From the IMG/VR virus record IMGVR_UViG_3300048861_000178, positions 64,001-128,000 of that record: 64,000 nt of DNA; one strand, 5' to 3'. Both the position numbers and the translations under genes were made by a program. Every line of letters starts with the position of its first letter. Positions within the stretch are counted from its first letter, which is position 1. The stretch is from a virus. Lineage: Duplodnaviria; Caudoviricetes. The notes beneath the pieces were generated by a model. That model worked only from the letters and a program-made list of their open reading frames with translations, ran no database searches and was not told the DNA's origin. Shown here one piece after another: positions 50,496 to 56,346 of the stretch.

Positions 50496-50529
50496 GTAGA
50501 GGGCGGCCTACGGGCTGCCTTCTATGCCG
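50496..50529 (+). terminator. Terminator with TATGCCG tail
   Basis: TAGAGGGCGGCC-TACG-GGCTGCCTTCTA-TGCCG. Confidence 0.8.
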
Positions 50530-50577
50530 TTTTTACGCCGTCGCCCCATCGGTTGAGTACCCATACAAGGATAAATC

Positions 50578-51099
50578 ATGCCCACTAAATCAGGTCGTAT
50601 CAAGCTCGAAGATCTCCGTCAAGGCAGAACCATTTGGCAACCCGCAGTCGGTCGCGATGGCAAGATGGTCGCCAAGCCCTTTCTGATCACCCTCGGTTTC
50701 ACCTACCGCTTGGTCGGACTGGTGGAAAACGAGCAGGGTCAGCTGGTGGGCTACAGCCTGCCGATGTATTCGATCGGTAAGCCCCGCACCATGAGTCACT
50801 ACCAAGGCCCGGCGCTCTCGACGTTTCATCCGACACGCAACATAGCGATCGTGGAATTGCCTGATGGCTCGCTCTGCCAGTGGAATGGCTTTACCAGCCA
50901 GAAAGCGTGTCAGCGTTATATCAACGACGTGCAAGCAGGTCGGCTGCCCAATTTCGCGACGGTAGGGGTGACCCTCGGCACGCCTGCGCGCGAGTCCGTC
51001 GCCAAGCACGCCAAACCGGCCGCGCAGTTCGAGCAGGTCGATTTCAACGATCTGAAGTGGGTGCCCTCTGACCCCACACCGAACTACGGTCACCGTTAA
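50578..51099 (+). CDS. MxTKxGR-family paralogue 1
   Basis: MPTKSGRIKLEDLRQGRTIW..FTSQKACQRY. Confidence 0.8.
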   Translation: MPTKSGRIKLEDLRQGRTIWQPAVGRDGKMVAKPFLITLGFTYRLVGLVENEQGQLVGYSLPMYSIGKPRTMSHYQGPALSTFHPTRNIAIVELPDGSLCQWNGFTSQKACQRYINDVQAGRLPNFATVGVTLGTPARESVAKHAKPAAQFEQVDFNDLKWVPSDPTPNYGHR

Positions 51100-51109
51100 G
51101 GAGGCGGCC

Positions 51110-51388
51110 ATGCGTGTCTTCTCTTGCCGTGCTGAGTGCGAGCATGATGTCAAACAGCTGCGCATTCGGCTGACGCGTTTACGCAATGCGGGCGAAGTGG
51201 ATTCTGCTGCCTTGTGGTTAAAAGACCATGAGTATCCGGATCGCGCGGTGGAGATTCACACCAACAAGAATCTGCACTTCCTGCGTTACTTGTTGCGCCA
51301 GATCCCGGACTCACACGTGATGATCCAATCGTTGCGCGAGGGTCCACTTTCGACCAACTCGCTGGACCGCGATCACGATGTCGAGTGA
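51110..51388 (+). CDS. Hypothetical phage protein
   Basis: AGGAGG RBS; CRAEC..PDSHVMIQSL. Confidence 0.75.
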   Translation: MRVFSCRAECEHDVKQLRIRLTRLRNAGEVDSAALWLKDHEYPDRAVEIHTNKNLHFLRYLLRQIPDSHVMIQSLREGPLSTNSLDRDHDVE

Positions 51389-51614
51389 AAAACATCCATG
51401 CTGCCGGGGTGAGTACCGGGACTCACCCGAAGGTATTGTGTACGTCTGCGGGTACAACACCGTGATTCAGTGCGAAGAGTGCCGCTATCGCACCAATCGC
51501 AACTTCAGCTATCTGGAAGTCCGCAAGAATCCAGAGGCCAAAGGGAACCGCCCAATGGGTGGTCGTGCAGTCCAACTGACGTTTTTCCCGAGGAAAGAAT
51601 ATGGAACCGAATAA
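51378..51614 (+). CDS. Small Cys-rich protein
   Basis: CC..C..CEECRY. Confidence 0.6.
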   Translation: MSSEKHPCCRGEYRDSPEGIVYVCGYNTVIQCEECRYRTNRNFSYLEVRKNPEAKGNRPMGGRAVQLTFFPRKEYGTE

Positions 51615-52029
51615 GGACACACCGGCTGAGCCGTTGAAAATCGTTGATTACCTCGATCTAATCCCGCGCAAACCGGACCTCAATCCGAAGGCGACCCAGC
51701 AGTTGTGTGACCAGATCCGCAACATGCTGAAGGATCACGAGTTTGTGCCGGTCATTCCGACGAACTTCAAGCGCTTCGAGGACATGATCCCGAAGGGTGG
51801 CTTTAAGATGGGTGAGCTGGCCCTGTTTGTGCCACCCATTCCGCCACATGAGCGCAAATCGAACCTCGTGTTCCACATGGTGCTCAAGCGCATGGCGGAA
51901 GATCCGAATTACAAGCCCGTCTTCCATTTTGAAAACGAATGGACGGCGTACGATCAAGAACGCTTCGAAGCAGCCTGCAAGAACATGGGGCTGGAAATTA
52001 CCAACGACAACAAGGAAACCAAGTCATGA
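51601..52029 (+). CDS. Hypothetical protein with DnaB-like motif remnants
   Basis: GGFKMGEL..HERKS..KPVFHFENE. Confidence 0.6.
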   Translation: MEPNKDTPAEPLKIVDYLDLIPRKPDLNPKATQQLCDQIRNMLKDHEFVPVIPTNFKRFEDMIPKGGFKMGELALFVPPIPPHERKSNLVFHMVLKRMAEDPNYKPVFHFENEWTAYDQERFEAACKNMGLEITNDNKETKS

Positions 52030-52571
52030 GTAAGTCCAACGCCGCGCAACGCCGTCTCGCGCAAAAGAAGCTACCGCTGGTTATGCAGAAAATGCTCGCT
52101 AACGGCTACTCGGGTGCCCATCGTCCCGCAGCCGGTGAGCACGCCGACGAGTTCTACCTGAACTATCTGGAGAACCGTCGCCAGGCTGCGTTGGAACAAA
52201 AGCCGTTCCGTGACGCATTGCACGCGCTGCACGAGTCCAATCCGTTCAAGGAAGTCGCGTACGGTGCGGCGCTCTTTACCTACGTGCCCACCGAACTGTC
52301 GCTTAAGATCGGCGCGTTGTGTGCCGAGTGGAAGGTGCCGGTGCAGGAGAACTTGCAAGGCAAGAGCTGGTCATCCGTGCGCTACCCGTGGAATGACGGC
52401 AAACCCGTCAGCCAGGAGTACGTGTTGCCGTCGCCAGATCATGCGGACTTCATGAAGTTCGTCACGTACGAGCAACTGCGTGCCACGCCCGAGCAGGATC
52501 TGAACATGCGTGCCTTGCTCACCCAAATGGCCAAAGATCTGGGGATCGCCGATGAAGCTCAAAACGTTTGA
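52026..52571 (+). CDS. Hypothetical protein
   Basis: ATG at 52026, AAGGA RBS. Confidence 0.75.
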   Translation: MSKSNAAQRRLAQKKLPLVMQKMLANGYSGAHRPAAGEHADEFYLNYLENRRQAALEQKPFRDALHALHESNPFKEVAYGAALFTYVPTELSLKIGALCAEWKVPVQENLQGKSWSSVRYPWNDGKPVSQEYVLPSPDHADFMKFVTYEQLRATPEQDLNMRALLTQMAKDLGIADEAQNV

Positions 52572-52860
52572 CATTCTCATGAACGGCAAGTTAAGGCCGT
52601 TCGAAGTCGTGCTCGATAAGGGCACGAAGGTGTTGGATTTTATCGACCATACGGGCGAAAGCACCGTGCAGTTGGTGATCCTCGAACCCGAGAACATGGG
52701 CGATGAGCTCGAAACGCGTAAGCTCTGCTTCTATCAGGTCAACGATAAGGAGACGAACGTGCCGGAGCTCGCACGCTACATCGCCACCTCCAAGGGTAAG
52801 TACTGGGCACCGTTTATGCTCTTTGACGTGACGGGGTGCGTGCTCGACGAAGAAGAGTAA
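52552..52860 (+). CDS. Hypothetical protein
   Basis: ATG at 52552. Confidence 0.7.
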   Translation: MKLKTFDILMNGKLRPFEVVLDKGTKVLDFIDHTGESTVQLVILEPENMGDELETRKLCFYQVNDKETNVPELARYIATSKGKYWAPFMLFDVTGCVLDEEE

Positions 52861-52887
52861 ATAGGCTAATTAAAAGGAGTAGGACAA

Positions 52888-53430
52888 ATGGCAGAAGAAA
52901 AGGCAATCCCGGCGATCCTCTCGTTTAACGAAAAGCGCATGCGGCCGGTAGTGGCACGGGCATTGCCCATGATCGGTAAACTCTTGAACATGCAGCGCGA
53001 TATTAACTTTGTTTTGCCGCGGGTAGACAAGCCGATTGGAGACTTCTTTGTGGTGGCGTTTCCGTACGGCGGGCCGATCGGCGTCAATAGCCGAGGGGTC
53101 GTGAACGAGGAAGGCGATTTCTTCTGCCTGGTCGAGAACTCCGCCCATGCTGCTTTTGAGCGCGAAGAGCTCACGCTCGGGCAAGTGCTGCACGACGCAC
53201 TCAGCTTCGTGTGTATCGAGCACAAACTCGTCGACGGCAAGATCAGCGTGTTGTTGCGCAATCGCGCGACGGAACTGATGGCACGTGCGTACTTTGTGGG
53301 CAGCACCACGTTTGACATGGCGGTAACCGTGACGCAGGCGCTCATGTGCATGAATGCACCGTCGCCGCGAGAAGCAGCGGCCCTCGCGTCCTCGGAACTG
53401 CAACGCATCATGAGCAAGAAGGAGGCGTAA
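52888..53430 (+). CDS. Hypothetical protein
   Basis: AGGAG RBS. Confidence 0.75.
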   Translation: MAEEKAIPAILSFNEKRMRPVVARALPMIGKLLNMQRDINFVLPRVDKPIGDFFVVAFPYGGPIGVNSRGVVNEEGDFFCLVENSAHAAFEREELTLGQVLHDALSFVCIEHKLVDGKISVLLRNRATELMARAYFVGSTTFDMAVTVTQALMCMNAPSPREAAALASSELQRIMSKKEA

Positions 53431-53681
53431 TGCCGCGGCTTGCCCATACCGTTGAAAAGGTCCGTCTGAATCTGGACATGCATCCGGAAGTGAAAGCCGA
53501 GATTCAGGCCTTACAGGAGCGACTTAACGCAGACAGCATGGGGGAAGTCATCCGGCGCTGCGTGAAAGCCGTCACTGCTATCCTGAAGGAAACCGACGAG
53601 GGCAATCGCGTCATGCTCCATCTTCAGGACGGCAGTCCTCCCCAGCAAATGTTGCTCTTTCCACCAAGGAGGGAAAAGTAA
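53430..53681 (+). CDS. Ribbon-helix-helix (CopG-like) protein
   Basis: KVRLNLDM..IQALQERL..SMGEVIRRCV. Confidence 0.7.
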   Translation: MPRLAHTVEKVRLNLDMHPEVKAEIQALQERLNADSMGEVIRRCVKAVTAILKETDEGNRVMLHLQDGSPPQQMLLFPPRREK

Positions 53682-54112
53682 TGAGTAGGCGAAGTGAAAT
53701 CCGCAGACGTCGTCAAGTCATGCGGGGCATTGGCGACAGACGACTGACCTATCGGCAGCAGATGGACTTGATTGCCATGCGCACGGTGAAACGGATCATC
53801 ACCACCGTGGGTTGGGACCACGTGAAATTCATGCAAGACACGTCGTTCTCCCTGGAAGCCGCCATCACGCCAGAACGAGAAGCCATCGTCGAGCAAATTT
53901 TGCTGGAGGAGGGGTATCTTAAGACACGCACTGGAGAGTTCGTCCACAAGAAGATGCGGCTGAACGACTTCGCCTCAATAGGCACGATAAGTATTGTGCC
54001 TACCGTTATCAGCGAACCTGATCGGATGCCAGGGGCTTTTGACTGGCCGGAAATCACTCCGGAAGAAATCAAAGCCGTCAAAGAACGGCTCGCAGCGCCA
54101 CACGGGATTTGA
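53681..54112 (+). CDS. Hypothetical protein
   Basis: GGAGG RBS. Confidence 0.7.
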   Translation: MSRRSEIRRRRQVMRGIGDRRLTYRQQMDLIAMRTVKRIITTVGWDHVKFMQDTSFSLEAAITPEREAIVEQILLEEGYLKTRTGEFVHKKMRLNDFASIGTISIVPTVISEPDRMPGAFDWPEITPEEIKAVKERLAAPHGI

Positions 54113-54122
54113 GCGGTATTAG

Positions 54123-54290
54123 TGCTAGTCACCTGAGTGCTGGGCGCGGCACTCACGGGGAGTGGTCCATCGTGCCGGTTTACAGGTTTGGCCGGATTAT
54201 CAAGTCGATGGTAAAAGGCCCGTTGGTAGGGGTGAGCGGCGTGGAAACCTCTCTGCCTGAATCCAACCCCCAGCACTCAGGTGATTGGTG
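54123..54290 (+). ncRNA. Unclassified multi-stem structured RNA
   Basis: 22-bp closing stem (18 Watson-Crick and 4 G-U pairs) enclosing three stem-loops with two possible pseudoknot pairings. Confidence 0.7.
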
Positions 54291-54319
54291 AACCATATGC
54301 GCATAGTCGGGGATTCACA

Positions 54320-54649
54320 ATGTCTGATTTAGTTCGGAGTTCAGTAAGGGAGACAATCGAACTGCTCTATGGCCTGATTGCCAATCCCGAATCGATCGAT
54401 AAGTTTGCTGCTTTCTTTAGCAAAATCAACGAGCGTCCGTTCGTGATGTCGGTGTCAGAGGGCAGGTACAACAATAAAGAACTCGGAACTGTGGTGACCA
54501 TTACGGTCCACGACAGCAAAGGCACGTTTGAATTGCTGCAGGGTTTCTTACCCTTAGCAGAAGAGATGTTTGAAAGAACAGGTAAGCGCTACTTCACTGA
54601 CTTCTTTGAGCCCGAGTTTGGCTCGATTCTGTTGGTCGAGAGCGAATAG
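54320..54649 (+). CDS. Hypothetical protein
   Basis: ATG at 54320. Confidence 0.65.
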   Translation: MSDLVRSSVRETIELLYGLIANPESIDKFAAFFSKINERPFVMSVSEGRYNNKELGTVVTITVHDSKGTFELLQGFLPLAEEMFERTGKRYFTDFFEPEFGSILLVESE

Positions 54650-54684
54650 GCATAATAACTAGATTTACACTACAGGTCGATAAC

Positions 54685-55563
54685 ATGACTACCATCCTCT
54701 ACCACGACGGCCGACTCTTTGCGGACTCGACTATCTACAAAGGTAGTGATCGCATCAACAGTCTGGAAAAGATCGTGTTGCTTAACCCGCCGTTTAAAAT
54801 CCTCTCGGACCGGCCGGAGTTCGAGTTCGATGACATCGTCTATGGCTACTCGGGCACGGGCAGCCAGGATGCGATGCAAGCCTTTGCTGAGCACTTGGAG
54901 GGCAATGTCAAGGAGCGCGAGGATAGCAAGCTCACGCTCGCTTTCTACGACATGGTCTCGACTGCCAACATGATCGTGCCCGGTAACACGTTCGAAATCT
55001 TCTTCATCGGCGAGAAAGCCAACCACAGCTTTCGGCTGGACCACCAGGGTTTTGTCTACACACGCTACGAGCTGGATCAGACGGTGGCGCTCGGTAGTGG
55101 CTCGCAAGACGTCATTCGCAATATCACGCACCATCGTGATCCCATTCGCGCGATGATGGAAACCTTCATCACCGATACAACATCGGGCGGCTGGATCGAC
55201 TGTTGGGCGCTGCGAGAAGATGATGGGCTGAAGCGCTTTCGACGTGTGGGGTTGTGTGAGCCGATTCCGACTGATCTGATCCGTCCCGTCATGGAGAAGT
55301 TCCATGCTGACATGGACGAGATCCCGCTGCAATTCGTACGCAATGCGAAGAACACGCAAGACATCATCAACATTGCCAATATGAATCAGAAGCTTTTCGA
55401 TCAGAATAAGCGGCTGAAAAAGCAGCTTGACATCTTGCGCAAGCAGGGTGTGCCCATTCCGGTCGTGCCGTCTAAAGTCGCCAAGGCAAAACCGAAAACC
55501 CAGAAGCTCCCTTACACGAAGCTCTCGGGTGAAAAAGCAGTCACTGAAGTGAAGAAGAAGTAA
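54685..55563 (+). CDS. Ntn-hydrolase (HslV/proteasome-beta-like) protein
   Basis: M-TTI..ADS, YSGTG, ALGSGS, D..SGG. Confidence 0.7.
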   Translation: MTTILYHDGRLFADSTIYKGSDRINSLEKIVLLNPPFKILSDRPEFEFDDIVYGYSGTGSQDAMQAFAEHLEGNVKEREDSKLTLAFYDMVSTANMIVPGNTFEIFFIGEKANHSFRLDHQGFVYTRYELDQTVALGSGSQDVIRNITHHRDPIRAMMETFITDTTSGGWIDCWALREDDGLKRFRRVGLCEPIPTDLIRPVMEKFHADMDEIPLQFVRNAKNTQDIINIANMNQKLFDQNKRLKKQLDILRKQGVPIPVVPSKVAKAKPKTQKLPYTKLSGEKAVTEVKKK

Positions 55564-55628
55564 AGATTTTTTGCTGGGCCCACAACTAAAGGTAGTATCC
55601 GTTAAACAAACGAGAAAGGAACAGTGTC

Positions 55629-55991
55629 ATGAAAGCAATCGTCAAACTCCTCGCCGCTGGCCTCAAACACAACTCCAACAAGGAACAAATCGCCAGCGAC
55701 ATCGGCCTGTCGGTCGACGACTTCAATCTGGTGCTCGACGGCACGATGGAAATCAGCCCGGCCCTCGCCCTGAAGCTCGAACAGACCATGGGCGTTGACG
55801 CCCACGACATCCTGAACGCGCAGTCGGCGGATCAGCTCGCCCAGCTCGGTAAAGCCCGCACCAGGAAGGTCGACGTGCCGAAGGAAACCAAAACCGCGAA
55901 GGCTGCCAAGCCCGCCACGGACGGTCAGCCGAAGCAGTCGCCGATGCATCGTGGTCCGCGGCTGACCGGCGCAATCGCAGTCAAGCTGTGA
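55629..55991 (+). CDS. HigA/XRE-like HTH protein
   Basis: QIASDIGLS..NLVLDG..ISPALALKLEQTMG..LNAQ. Confidence 0.75.
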   Translation: MKAIVKLLAAGLKHNSNKEQIASDIGLSVDDFNLVLDGTMEISPALALKLEQTMGVDAHDILNAQSADQLAQLGKARTRKVDVPKETKTAKAAKPATDGQPKQSPMHRGPRLTGAIAVKL

Positions 55992-56284
55992 ACGGGCCCG
56001 AGATTCTCTGCGAGATCAGTCGCGTACTTACTTCCGAAGCTTACGCTGTCGGGATGGAACCGACACGCCACCCTGGGGTAAATTTGTGCCAGGGTTCGCT
56101 CGACGTGGGTTATGAAGCTCTCTCGCGGGTCGAATGTGCGCAGTACGCAACTAGCTTGAAGGCGCAGATGGTTTTGCATGCCATCCTGCTGCAACACGGG
56201 ATTGACAACGTGGAGCATCTGAAACTCGTCTGCTTCAAGCCCGAAGGTGCGTACTTCACCTTCAGCAGTTACGTCGGCGACTAA
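55988..56284 (+). CDS. Hypothetical protein
   Basis: GTGA overlap. Confidence 0.6.
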   Translation: MNGPEILCEISRVLTSEAYAVGMEPTRHPGVNLCQGSLDVGYEALSRVECAQYATSLKAQMVLHAILLQHGIDNVEHLKLVCFKPEGAYFTFSSYVGD

Positions 56285-56290
56285 TGCACA

Positions 56291-56313
56291 GCGGAGCCTT
56301 CGGGCTCCGCTTT
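56291..56313 (+). terminator. Terminator
   Basis: GCGGAGCC-TTCG-GGCTCCGC-TTT. Confidence 0.8.
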
Positions 56314-56346
56314 GTGACTGCCTTTCTTTTTTGGCATTCATTTCGA

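What the first reader, a model, noticed from the sequence alone, without database searches (positions are those of the whole stretch)
54123..54290. Unclassified ~168-nt RNA: 22-bp closing stem, four-way junction, two possible pseudoknots
Seen: P1 54123-44/54269-90 (four G-U pairs favour + strand RNA); P2 CACTC/GAGTG; P3 CCATCG/CGATGG capped by CCGGTT/GGCCGG; P4 TTGG..TAGG/CCTG..CCAA. The P2 loop ACGGG can pair with CCCGT (54219-23), and the P3 loop AGGTTT (54184-89) can pair with AAACCT (54245-50) in the P4 loop. An alternative hairpin TGAGTGCTG/CGGCACTCA competes with P1. I cannot match it to a known class. This complexity suggests a ribozyme, riboswitch or protein-binding decoy; the terminal inverted repeats also recall retron ncRNAs.
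Basis: seen in the sequence. Interest (0 to 1): 0.8.

Follow-up and report, generated by a model that had tools for sequence, protein, structure and literature searches.

The report
New folded RNA of jumbo phages
The gap between two small genes of a giant, nucleus-forming phage (a relative of Burkholderia phage FLC9) encodes a real, compactly folded non-coding RNA of about 165 bases that matches no catalogued RNA family, is kept in shape by matching mutations in 15 related phages, and has no known job.

Summary
The element is real. The window belongs to a 315-kb chimallin- and PhuZ-encoding jumbo phage related to Burkholderia phage FLC9. I found 15 distinct full-length homologues (core identity down to 46%). 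In a 14-sequence alignment, 34 of 51 pairs show compensatory change; P2, P3a, P3b and P4a are 100% paired. G-U bias (64 versus 8) places it on the plus strand, as RNA. The long stem and four-way junction hold. The second pseudoknot is not conserved, and the first survives at most as a 1-2 bp contact in another register. P1 keeps length, not sequence; the invariant bases lie in the junction core; the P4 arm is optional. It is single-copy, lacks its own terminator, and sits in three gene contexts, once in a distant genus-level phage. No Rfam match, no reverse transcriptase (not a retron), no Ro60 (not a Y RNA), no canonical T loop. Best reading (about 45%): a trans-acting stable small RNA, cut out of a polycistronic transcript at P1, whose core binds a protein. 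Expression and function are untested. The scan had not noted this family on other DNA, although it has noted other unrelated jumbo-phage RNAs of similar shape.

The parts
54123..54290 (+). Whole structured RNA element (predicted boundaries = ends of P1)
   Evidence: CM hit 191 bits, single copy in the genome; descriptor scan gives one hit in 315 kb
54123..54146 (+). P1 5' strand
   Evidence: 19 of 21 P1 pairs show changes on both sides; only 2 invariant columns in P1
54147..54149 (+). J1/2, YGG, GG invariant
54150..54164 (+). P2 hairpin, 5 bp, 5-nt loop of consensus RCRSG
   Evidence: 100% paired, 3 of 5 pairs compensatory
54167..54211 (+). P3 arm: P3a (54167-72 with 54206-11), 2x10 asymmetric internal loop with invariant CAA (54201-03), P3b (54175-78 with 54192-95), loop L3 with conserved GGUU
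   Evidence: P3a and P3b 100% paired, 3 compensatory pairs; segments
54212..54221 (+). J3/4, A-rich linker with invariant AAAG followed by C; candidate tertiary-contact strand
54222..54267 (+). P4 arm: invariant-length 5-bp P4a (54222-26 with 54263-67) stacked on P1, flanked inside by UA and invariant AAU; variable peripheral extension 54229-59, absent in L191
   Evidence: P4a 100% paired, 2 compensatory pairs; extension 88% paired, 7 compensatory
54268..54290 (+). P1 3' strand
53681..54112 (+). Upstream gene, Arg-rich N-terminus, orthologue of FLC9 gp199; lies downstream of the RNA in FLC9 and L196 (context, not part of the RNA)
   Evidence: no family found
54320..54649 (+). Downstream gene, orthologue of FLC9 gp198, confident alpha/beta model without clear fold match; absent from carrier genome G003 (context, not part of the RNA)

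Best explanation
A phage-encoded, trans-acting stable small RNA. Shown: it is a conserved plus-strand RNA fold, non-coding, single-copy, with a four-way junction whose helices covary, a sequence-free closing stem of 18-25 bp, invariant junction bases and an optional peripheral arm; it occurs in three gene contexts. Inferred: it is co-transcribed in a polycistronic message (in this window the unit of about 50578-56284, bracketed by terminator-like hairpins). P1 clamps the ends and serves as the processing or exonuclease-barrier stem that frees a roughly 140-175 nt RNA, for example by an RNase III-type cut. P4a stacks on P1; P2, P3 and the A-rich linker pack into a compact core held by a few tertiary contacts. 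That core presents a binding surface for one protein (host or phage), acting as decoy or scaffold. The partner is unknown; the cloverleaf-like topology points first to proteins that read tRNA-like or ribosomal RNA shapes.
For: Covariation: 96.4% of cells paired, 34 of 51 pairs compensatory, against 15 in shuffles and 7-12 in slid controls. G-U 64 versus C-A 8. RNA 86% identical to FLC9 while flanking genes are 65-77% at DNA level. Indels of 1-4 nt and a 30-nt deletion among homologues exclude coding. 17 invariant unpaired bases, all in the core. Position independence: after the gp199 orthologue (window), before it (FLC9, L196), and at the head of an unrelated operon in G003, which lacks the gp198 family and has a 45%-identical chimallin yet an RNA core 88% identical to L163. 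No U tract or terminator after P1, no early-promoter motif in front.
Against: No expression, end-mapping or binding data. Every copy lies 10-40 nt upstream of a start codon on the same strand, which also fits a cis role. Two related phages (L164, L194) lack it at the syntenic site, and ten other nucleus-forming phages have no match, so it is not core to the lifestyle. No partner protein co-occurs strictly.
Confidence: 0.45

Rival explanations
1. Cis-acting messenger element: a processing, stabilising, translation-enhancing or nuclear-export signal that works on whichever gene lies downstream.
For: Always intercistronic or leader-positioned, sense strand, 10-40 nt before a start codon; in G003 it heads an operon. 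P1 resembles RNase III-type processing stems (own knowledge).
Against: A simple stem would do for processing or stability; it does not explain 17 invariant unpaired core bases. The downstream gene differs among contexts. The ribosome site is never inside the fold.
Confidence: 0.24
2. A new class of ribozyme (self-cleaving or other) whose junction core is the active site.
For: Compact multi-helix junction with invariant single-stranded bases, independence of gene context, position between cistrons.
Against: No Rfam ribozyme family matches three divergent members even at E up to 10. The double-pseudoknot picture that suggested it failed. An 18-25 bp closing stem would hold cleavage products together.
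Confidence: 0.12
3. A ligand-binding aptamer: riboswitch in cis or a sponge for a small signalling molecule in trans.
For: Conserved junction pocket; size typical of aptamers; leader position in G003.
Against: No conserved expression platform; the alternative hairpin is lost in 4 of 13; downstream genes share no function; no Rfam match.
Confidence: 0.1
4. A ribosome- or tRNA-engaging mimic that acts by base pairing or shape: L3 GGU could pair with a tRNA RCCA end, and in five homologues the P4 extension ends in the ten bases of the 16S rRNA 3' tail.
For: GGUU in L3 of all homologues segmented; GATCACCTCC in L144, L153, L161, L192, L193, never elsewhere in this 315-kb genome; identity with the 16S tail is from my own knowledge.
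Against: The 16S-like stretch is absent from the window copy and from most others, is half explained by a GGAGG/CCUCC stem, and was noticed after the fact. GGUU can equally pair inside the RNA (with J3/4 or CAA). No canonical T loop.
Confidence: 0.06
5. DNA-level element (MITE, cruciform or single-strand origin) or retron ncRNA.
For: Long terminal inverted repeat; changes position; single-stranded DNA also tolerates G-T.
Against: One copy per genome; repeat sequence not conserved, no target duplication seen; strand-asymmetric G-U; no RVT_1 in four carrier genomes; msd-like arm deleted in L191.
Confidence: 0.03

Closest known systems
Orphan small RNAs of lytic phages: T4 RNAC and RNAD (roles unknown, PMC3014915); UTR-derived and processed ncRNA candidates of phiKZ and PAK_P3 (PMC10914365)
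   Same: Phage-encoded, 100-200 nt, intergenic, probably produced by processing of a longer transcript, conserved within a narrow clade, function unknown.
   Different: No sequence or model match (Rfam; no CM hit in phiKZ-like PA7, PhiPA3 or EL). Not in the tRNA cluster (tRNAs lie 40 kb away). Here the structure rests on covariation, but expression is not shown.
YrlA-type bacterial and phage Y RNAs (Chen et al. 2014, PMC4201824)
   Same: Long stem joining 5' and 3' ends, carrying a multi-helix, cloverleaf-like domain; similar size.
   Different: No Ro60/TROVE gene in four carrier genomes, no GNCGAAN motif in the 5' strand, no canonical T loop, arms not permuted as in YrlA.
tRNA and tRNA-like elements
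   Same: Four-way junction; a 5-bp stem closed by G-C stacks directly on the closing stem; loop remnants U...AAU recall U54, A58, N59, Y60.
   Different: U55 and C56 are missing and a hairpin replaces the T loop in all but one; no 7-nt anticodon loop, no CCA end; ARAGORN finds nothing.
Retron msr-msd RNAs
   Same: Terminal inverted repeats enclosing small hairpins and one longer hairpin.
   Different: No reverse transcriptase in the genome or relatives; the long hairpin is G-U rich, variable and dispensable.
Candidate viral structured RNAs predicted at scale from IMG/VR (PMC10690425)
   Same: Same kind of object and a source collection that holds some carriers.
   Different: Could not check whether this family is among the 10,000 candidates: no supplement is held.

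Membership tests
Any Rfam 15 family | Covariance-model score at gathering threshold | tested here: not met
   None in the window; only chance miRNA/lncRNA hits at E 0.8-6 for window, L191, L162
Retron ncRNA | Cognate reverse transcriptase encoded next to it | tested here: not met
   No PF00078 match in G000, G002, G003, FLC9; controls ring
Retron ncRNA | Conserved msd hairpin template inside a1/a2 repeats | tested here: not met
   P4 extension variable and deleted in L191
Retron ncRNA | msDNA produced in vivo | not testable with these tools
   needs bench work
YrlA-type Y RNA | Ro60 (TROVE) orthologue encoded adjacent | tested here: not met
   No PF05731 in four genomes; controls ring; criterion from PMC4201824
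YrlA-type Y RNA | GNCGAAN(0-1)G motif near the 5' end and a tRNA-like T loop | tested here: not met
   Absent from all aligned 5' strands; no UUCRA loop
tRNA / tmRNA | Cloverleaf with T loop, anticodon loop or tag, CCA end | tested here: not met
   ARAGORN 0 in window; alignment
Known self-cleaving ribozymes (hammerhead, HDV-like, twister, twister sister, pistol, hatchet, glmS) | Class-specific core and pseudoknots | tested here: not met
   No Rfam hit at E up to 10 for three members; proposed pseudoknots fail
Ribozyme of a new class | Self-cleavage or other catalysis | not testable with these tools
   needs in vitro assay
Riboswitch | Expression platform and functionally coherent downstream genes | tested here: inconclusive
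   No terminator or sequestered ribosome site; three downstream gene types; all genes of unknown function
MITE / DNA inverted-repeat element | Multiple copies with conserved terminal repeats and target duplication | tested here: not met
   Single copy; P1 5' strand 33-38% identical in L199 and L192
Orphan phage structured small RNA | Covariation-supported fold in non-coding phage DNA | tested here: met
Orphan phage structured small RNA | Accumulates as a discrete transcript | not testable with these tools
   no RNA run holding the stretch was listed, which says nothing either way

The most novel reading that the evidence does not exclude
The RNA is a new functional class: either a new ribozyme or ligand-binding fold, or a processed RNA that acts inside or at the shell of the phage nucleus (a 20-bp helix is wider than the reported 1.4-nm chimallin pores), or an RNA-only counter-defence decoy that nucleus-forming phages of different genera exchange as a self-contained unit.
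Probability: 0.25. Interest if true: 0.85.

Novelty: new variant of a known kind. Interest (0 to 1): 0.55.

Why it matters
No trans-acting structured RNA has an assigned function in nucleus-forming jumbo phages in the papers I searched. This one is small, has a well-determined secondary structure, a natural minimal form (L191, about 135 nt) and a cultured carrier (FLC9 on Burkholderia glumae), so assays are straightforward. It also bears on an open question: chimallin pores average 1.4 nm (PMC12908238), narrower than an A-form helix (own knowledge), so a message carrying a -42 kcal/mol stem must be threaded before folding, unwound, or cut. Where this RNA ends up would test models of mRNA export. 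Its appearance in a distantly related phage at another locus suggests a selected, portable function.

Tried and rejected
Rfam at gathering and E-value thresholds: nothing. ARAGORN: nothing in the window. Second copy or paralogue in the own genome: none by BLAST, nhmmer, CM or descriptor. Homologues in ten other Chimalliviridae (RSF1, LucasX, RTH11, PhiPA3, RP12, RAY, Goslar, PA7, Eowyn, EL): none with R1 or R2; remote homologues below the filters are not excluded. Prokaryote genomes: exact core pattern absent; plasmids: only chance hits. Loose DNA patterns gave mostly chance loci or none. Sequencing runs: no RNA holder listed; the DNA contigs laid show only structure-neutral variants in the element. 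The overlapping 60-aa TTG frame and the GTG start at 54281 are rejected as genes because of frame-breaking indels in homologues. Neighbour proteins: no Pfam or PHROG family for the two flanking genes; Atlas hits under 0.8; best fold match Z 4.6, uninformative. Resemblances recalled from memory and dropped because the matching bases are not conserved: yybP-ykoY riboswitch L1/L3, SRP Alu domain and helix 8, twister P4, phi29 pRNA loop pairing, c-di-AMP and cobalamin riboswitch fragments, 16S helices 44-45. A possible L3-CAA pairing (UUG/CAA) and an L3-J3/4 pairing (GGUU/RRCC) are compatible with most sequences but have no clean covariation. Supplement of PMC10690425 not available.

Full report
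Source. The window is part of a 315,190-base virus record. It encodes chimallin (PF25677, E 1e-54) and a PhuZ-type tubulin, so it is a nucleus-forming jumbo phage. Its nearest cultured relative is Burkholderia phage FLC9 (chimallin 80% identical; all other isolates 32% or less), an unclassified genus infecting B. glumae (PMC12388082). The element fills the gap between a gene ending at 54112 and one starting at 54320, all on the plus strand.

Observation. The 168-mer folds better than all 200 shuffles (z -4.55), and P1 is the strongest inverted repeat of the window. The single-sequence MFE keeps P1 and P4 but rearranges P2 and P3, so homologues were needed.

Homologues. BLAST found the element in FLC9 at 86% identity, against 65-77% for flanking coding matches. 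DNA patterns and look-ups of contigs encoding the flanking proteins gave more. A covariance model recovered 15 distinct full-length copies at 87-194 bits and one partial copy. Core identity to the window copy falls to 52% (L162) and 46% (L191).

Structure. On 14 aligned sequences 96.4% of cells pair and 34 of 51 pairs change on both sides, against a mean of 15 in shuffles (0 of 500 reach it) and 7-12 in slid controls. The alignment was fitted to the model, so I also cut the sequences by a separate pattern: P2, P3b and P4a pair in 13 of 13, and so do five of six P3a pairs. G-U cells outnumber C-A cells 64 to 8, which places the fold on the plus strand. P1 is 18-25 bp in all but has only two invariant columns; 17 invariant unpaired bases lie in the core: GG in J1/2, C and G in loop 2, a U in loop 3, CAA and U in the internal loop, AAAG and C in J3/4, AAU in P4. 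The P4 extension varies freely and is reduced to three bases in L191. Indels of 1-4 bases exclude a coding role.

Pseudoknots. The 6-bp loop 3 / loop 4 pairing exists only in three near-identical phages, and its 3' strand belongs to the covarying hairpin P4c. The 5-bp loop 2 pairing is broken in L191, L162 and L192, and two of its bases belong to P4a. A shifted contact survives: loop-2 position 4 with the last base of J3/4 changes G-C to C-G in L162 (one event), and the neighbouring pair holds in 12 of 13. Loop 3 could pair with CAA or with J3/4; neither shows clean covariation. The competing hairpin is kept in 9 of 13 copies, including parallel changes in L162, and lost in 4.

Context and range. 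One copy per genome in G000, G001, G002, G003 and FLC9. It follows the gp199 orthologue in the window but precedes it in FLC9 and L196. In G003 (253 kb, terminal repeats, chimallin 45% identical, no gp198 family) it follows a divergent gene and heads an operon of a membrane protein and phosphatase-like genes, yet its core is 88% identical to L163; this suggests horizontal exchange (inference; no tree was built). It is missing at the syntenic site in L164 and L194 and was not found in ten other nucleus-forming phages, in prokaryote genomes or in plasmids. In the window it lies inside a unit bracketed by terminator-like hairpins near 50502-50540 and 56292-56330; the only early-type promoter motif nearby (56356) serves the next unit. 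No terminator follows P1; start codons follow 10-40 bases downstream.

Mechanism. Shown: a conserved non-coding RNA fold with a sequence-free clamp, a sequence-constrained junction core and an optional arm, independent of its neighbours. Inferred: P1 is a processing or protective stem that frees a stable RNA; the core binds a macromolecular partner as decoy or scaffold (0.45). Rivals: cis-acting mRNA element (0.24), new ribozyme (0.12), aptamer (0.10), base-pairing or shape mimic at the ribosome (0.06), DNA element or retron (0.03). No RNA run holding the locus was listed, so expression is open.

Comparison. It is in no Rfam family. It fails the retron test (no reverse transcriptase), the Y RNA test (no Ro60, no GNCGAAN motif) and the tRNA test, though its topology is cloverleaf-like, with a 5-bp stem stacked on the closing stem and remnants resembling U54 and A58-Y60. 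It works most like the orphan processed small RNAs of lytic phages, such as T4 RNAC and RNAD, whose roles are unknown (PMC3014915), and the UTR-derived candidates of phiKZ and PAK_P3 (PMC10914365), but shares no sequence with them as far as tested. I could not check the 10,000 viral candidates of PMC10690425. This scan holds no look-alike sequence but lists other jumbo-phage RNAs of similar shape; my models found no match in two Xanthomonas jumbo phages.

Verdict. A real, undescribed RNA family of FLC9-like nucleus-forming phages; four-way junction confirmed, pseudoknots mostly rejected, function unknown but directly testable in a cultured phage. Interest 0.55.

Noticed in passing
L144, L153, L161, L192, L193 (P4 extension; equivalent of window 54229-54259): The P4c hairpin is a Shine-Dalgarno-like strand paired with GATCACCTCC, the sense sequence of the 16S rRNA 3' tail (own knowledge); variants in FLC9, L155, L199; replaced in the window copy by a GGA-bearing loop.
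   Followed up: partly
L153 and L161, P4 internal loop: UAUGG opposite CCUAAA resembles the 11-nt GAAA tetraloop receptor (own knowledge); no conserved GNRA loop to dock into it.
   Followed up: no
window:54685-55563: HslV-family peptidase-like gene (phrog_1040, E 6e-11), second gene downstream; shortened to 77 aa in L191.
   Followed up: partly
window:53681-54112; FLC9 gp199 and gp200 (L001:5743-6592): Small proteins with Arg/Lys-rich N-termini often flank the RNA; candidate RNA binders, but they also occur where the RNA is missing and no family was found.
   Followed up: partly
window:53346-53681 and 55629-55991: Weak ribbon-helix-helix match (PF01402, E 0.09) and an HTH antitoxin-like gene (phrog_1381, E 3e-4) in the same transcription unit.
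   Followed up: no
L194:5270-5399: At the site where the RNA would lie, this relative has a different 128-nt gap with two strong hairpins; not matched by the model.
   Followed up: partly
window: 7367, 20859, 32658, 42526, 47735, 50523 (+), 48390 (-): Recurrent TATGCCGT motif after hairpins, 35 copies genome-wide; probably the phage's own terminator signature.
   Followed up: no
G000:C1:158207-158878: Four tRNA calls (Tyr, Asn, His, Phe), 40 kb from the element.
   Followed up: no
L191:11122-11652 versus window:56404-56934: This gene is 92% identical between the window and a phage whose neighbouring genes are about 47-68% identical: the region is mosaic.
   Followed up: no
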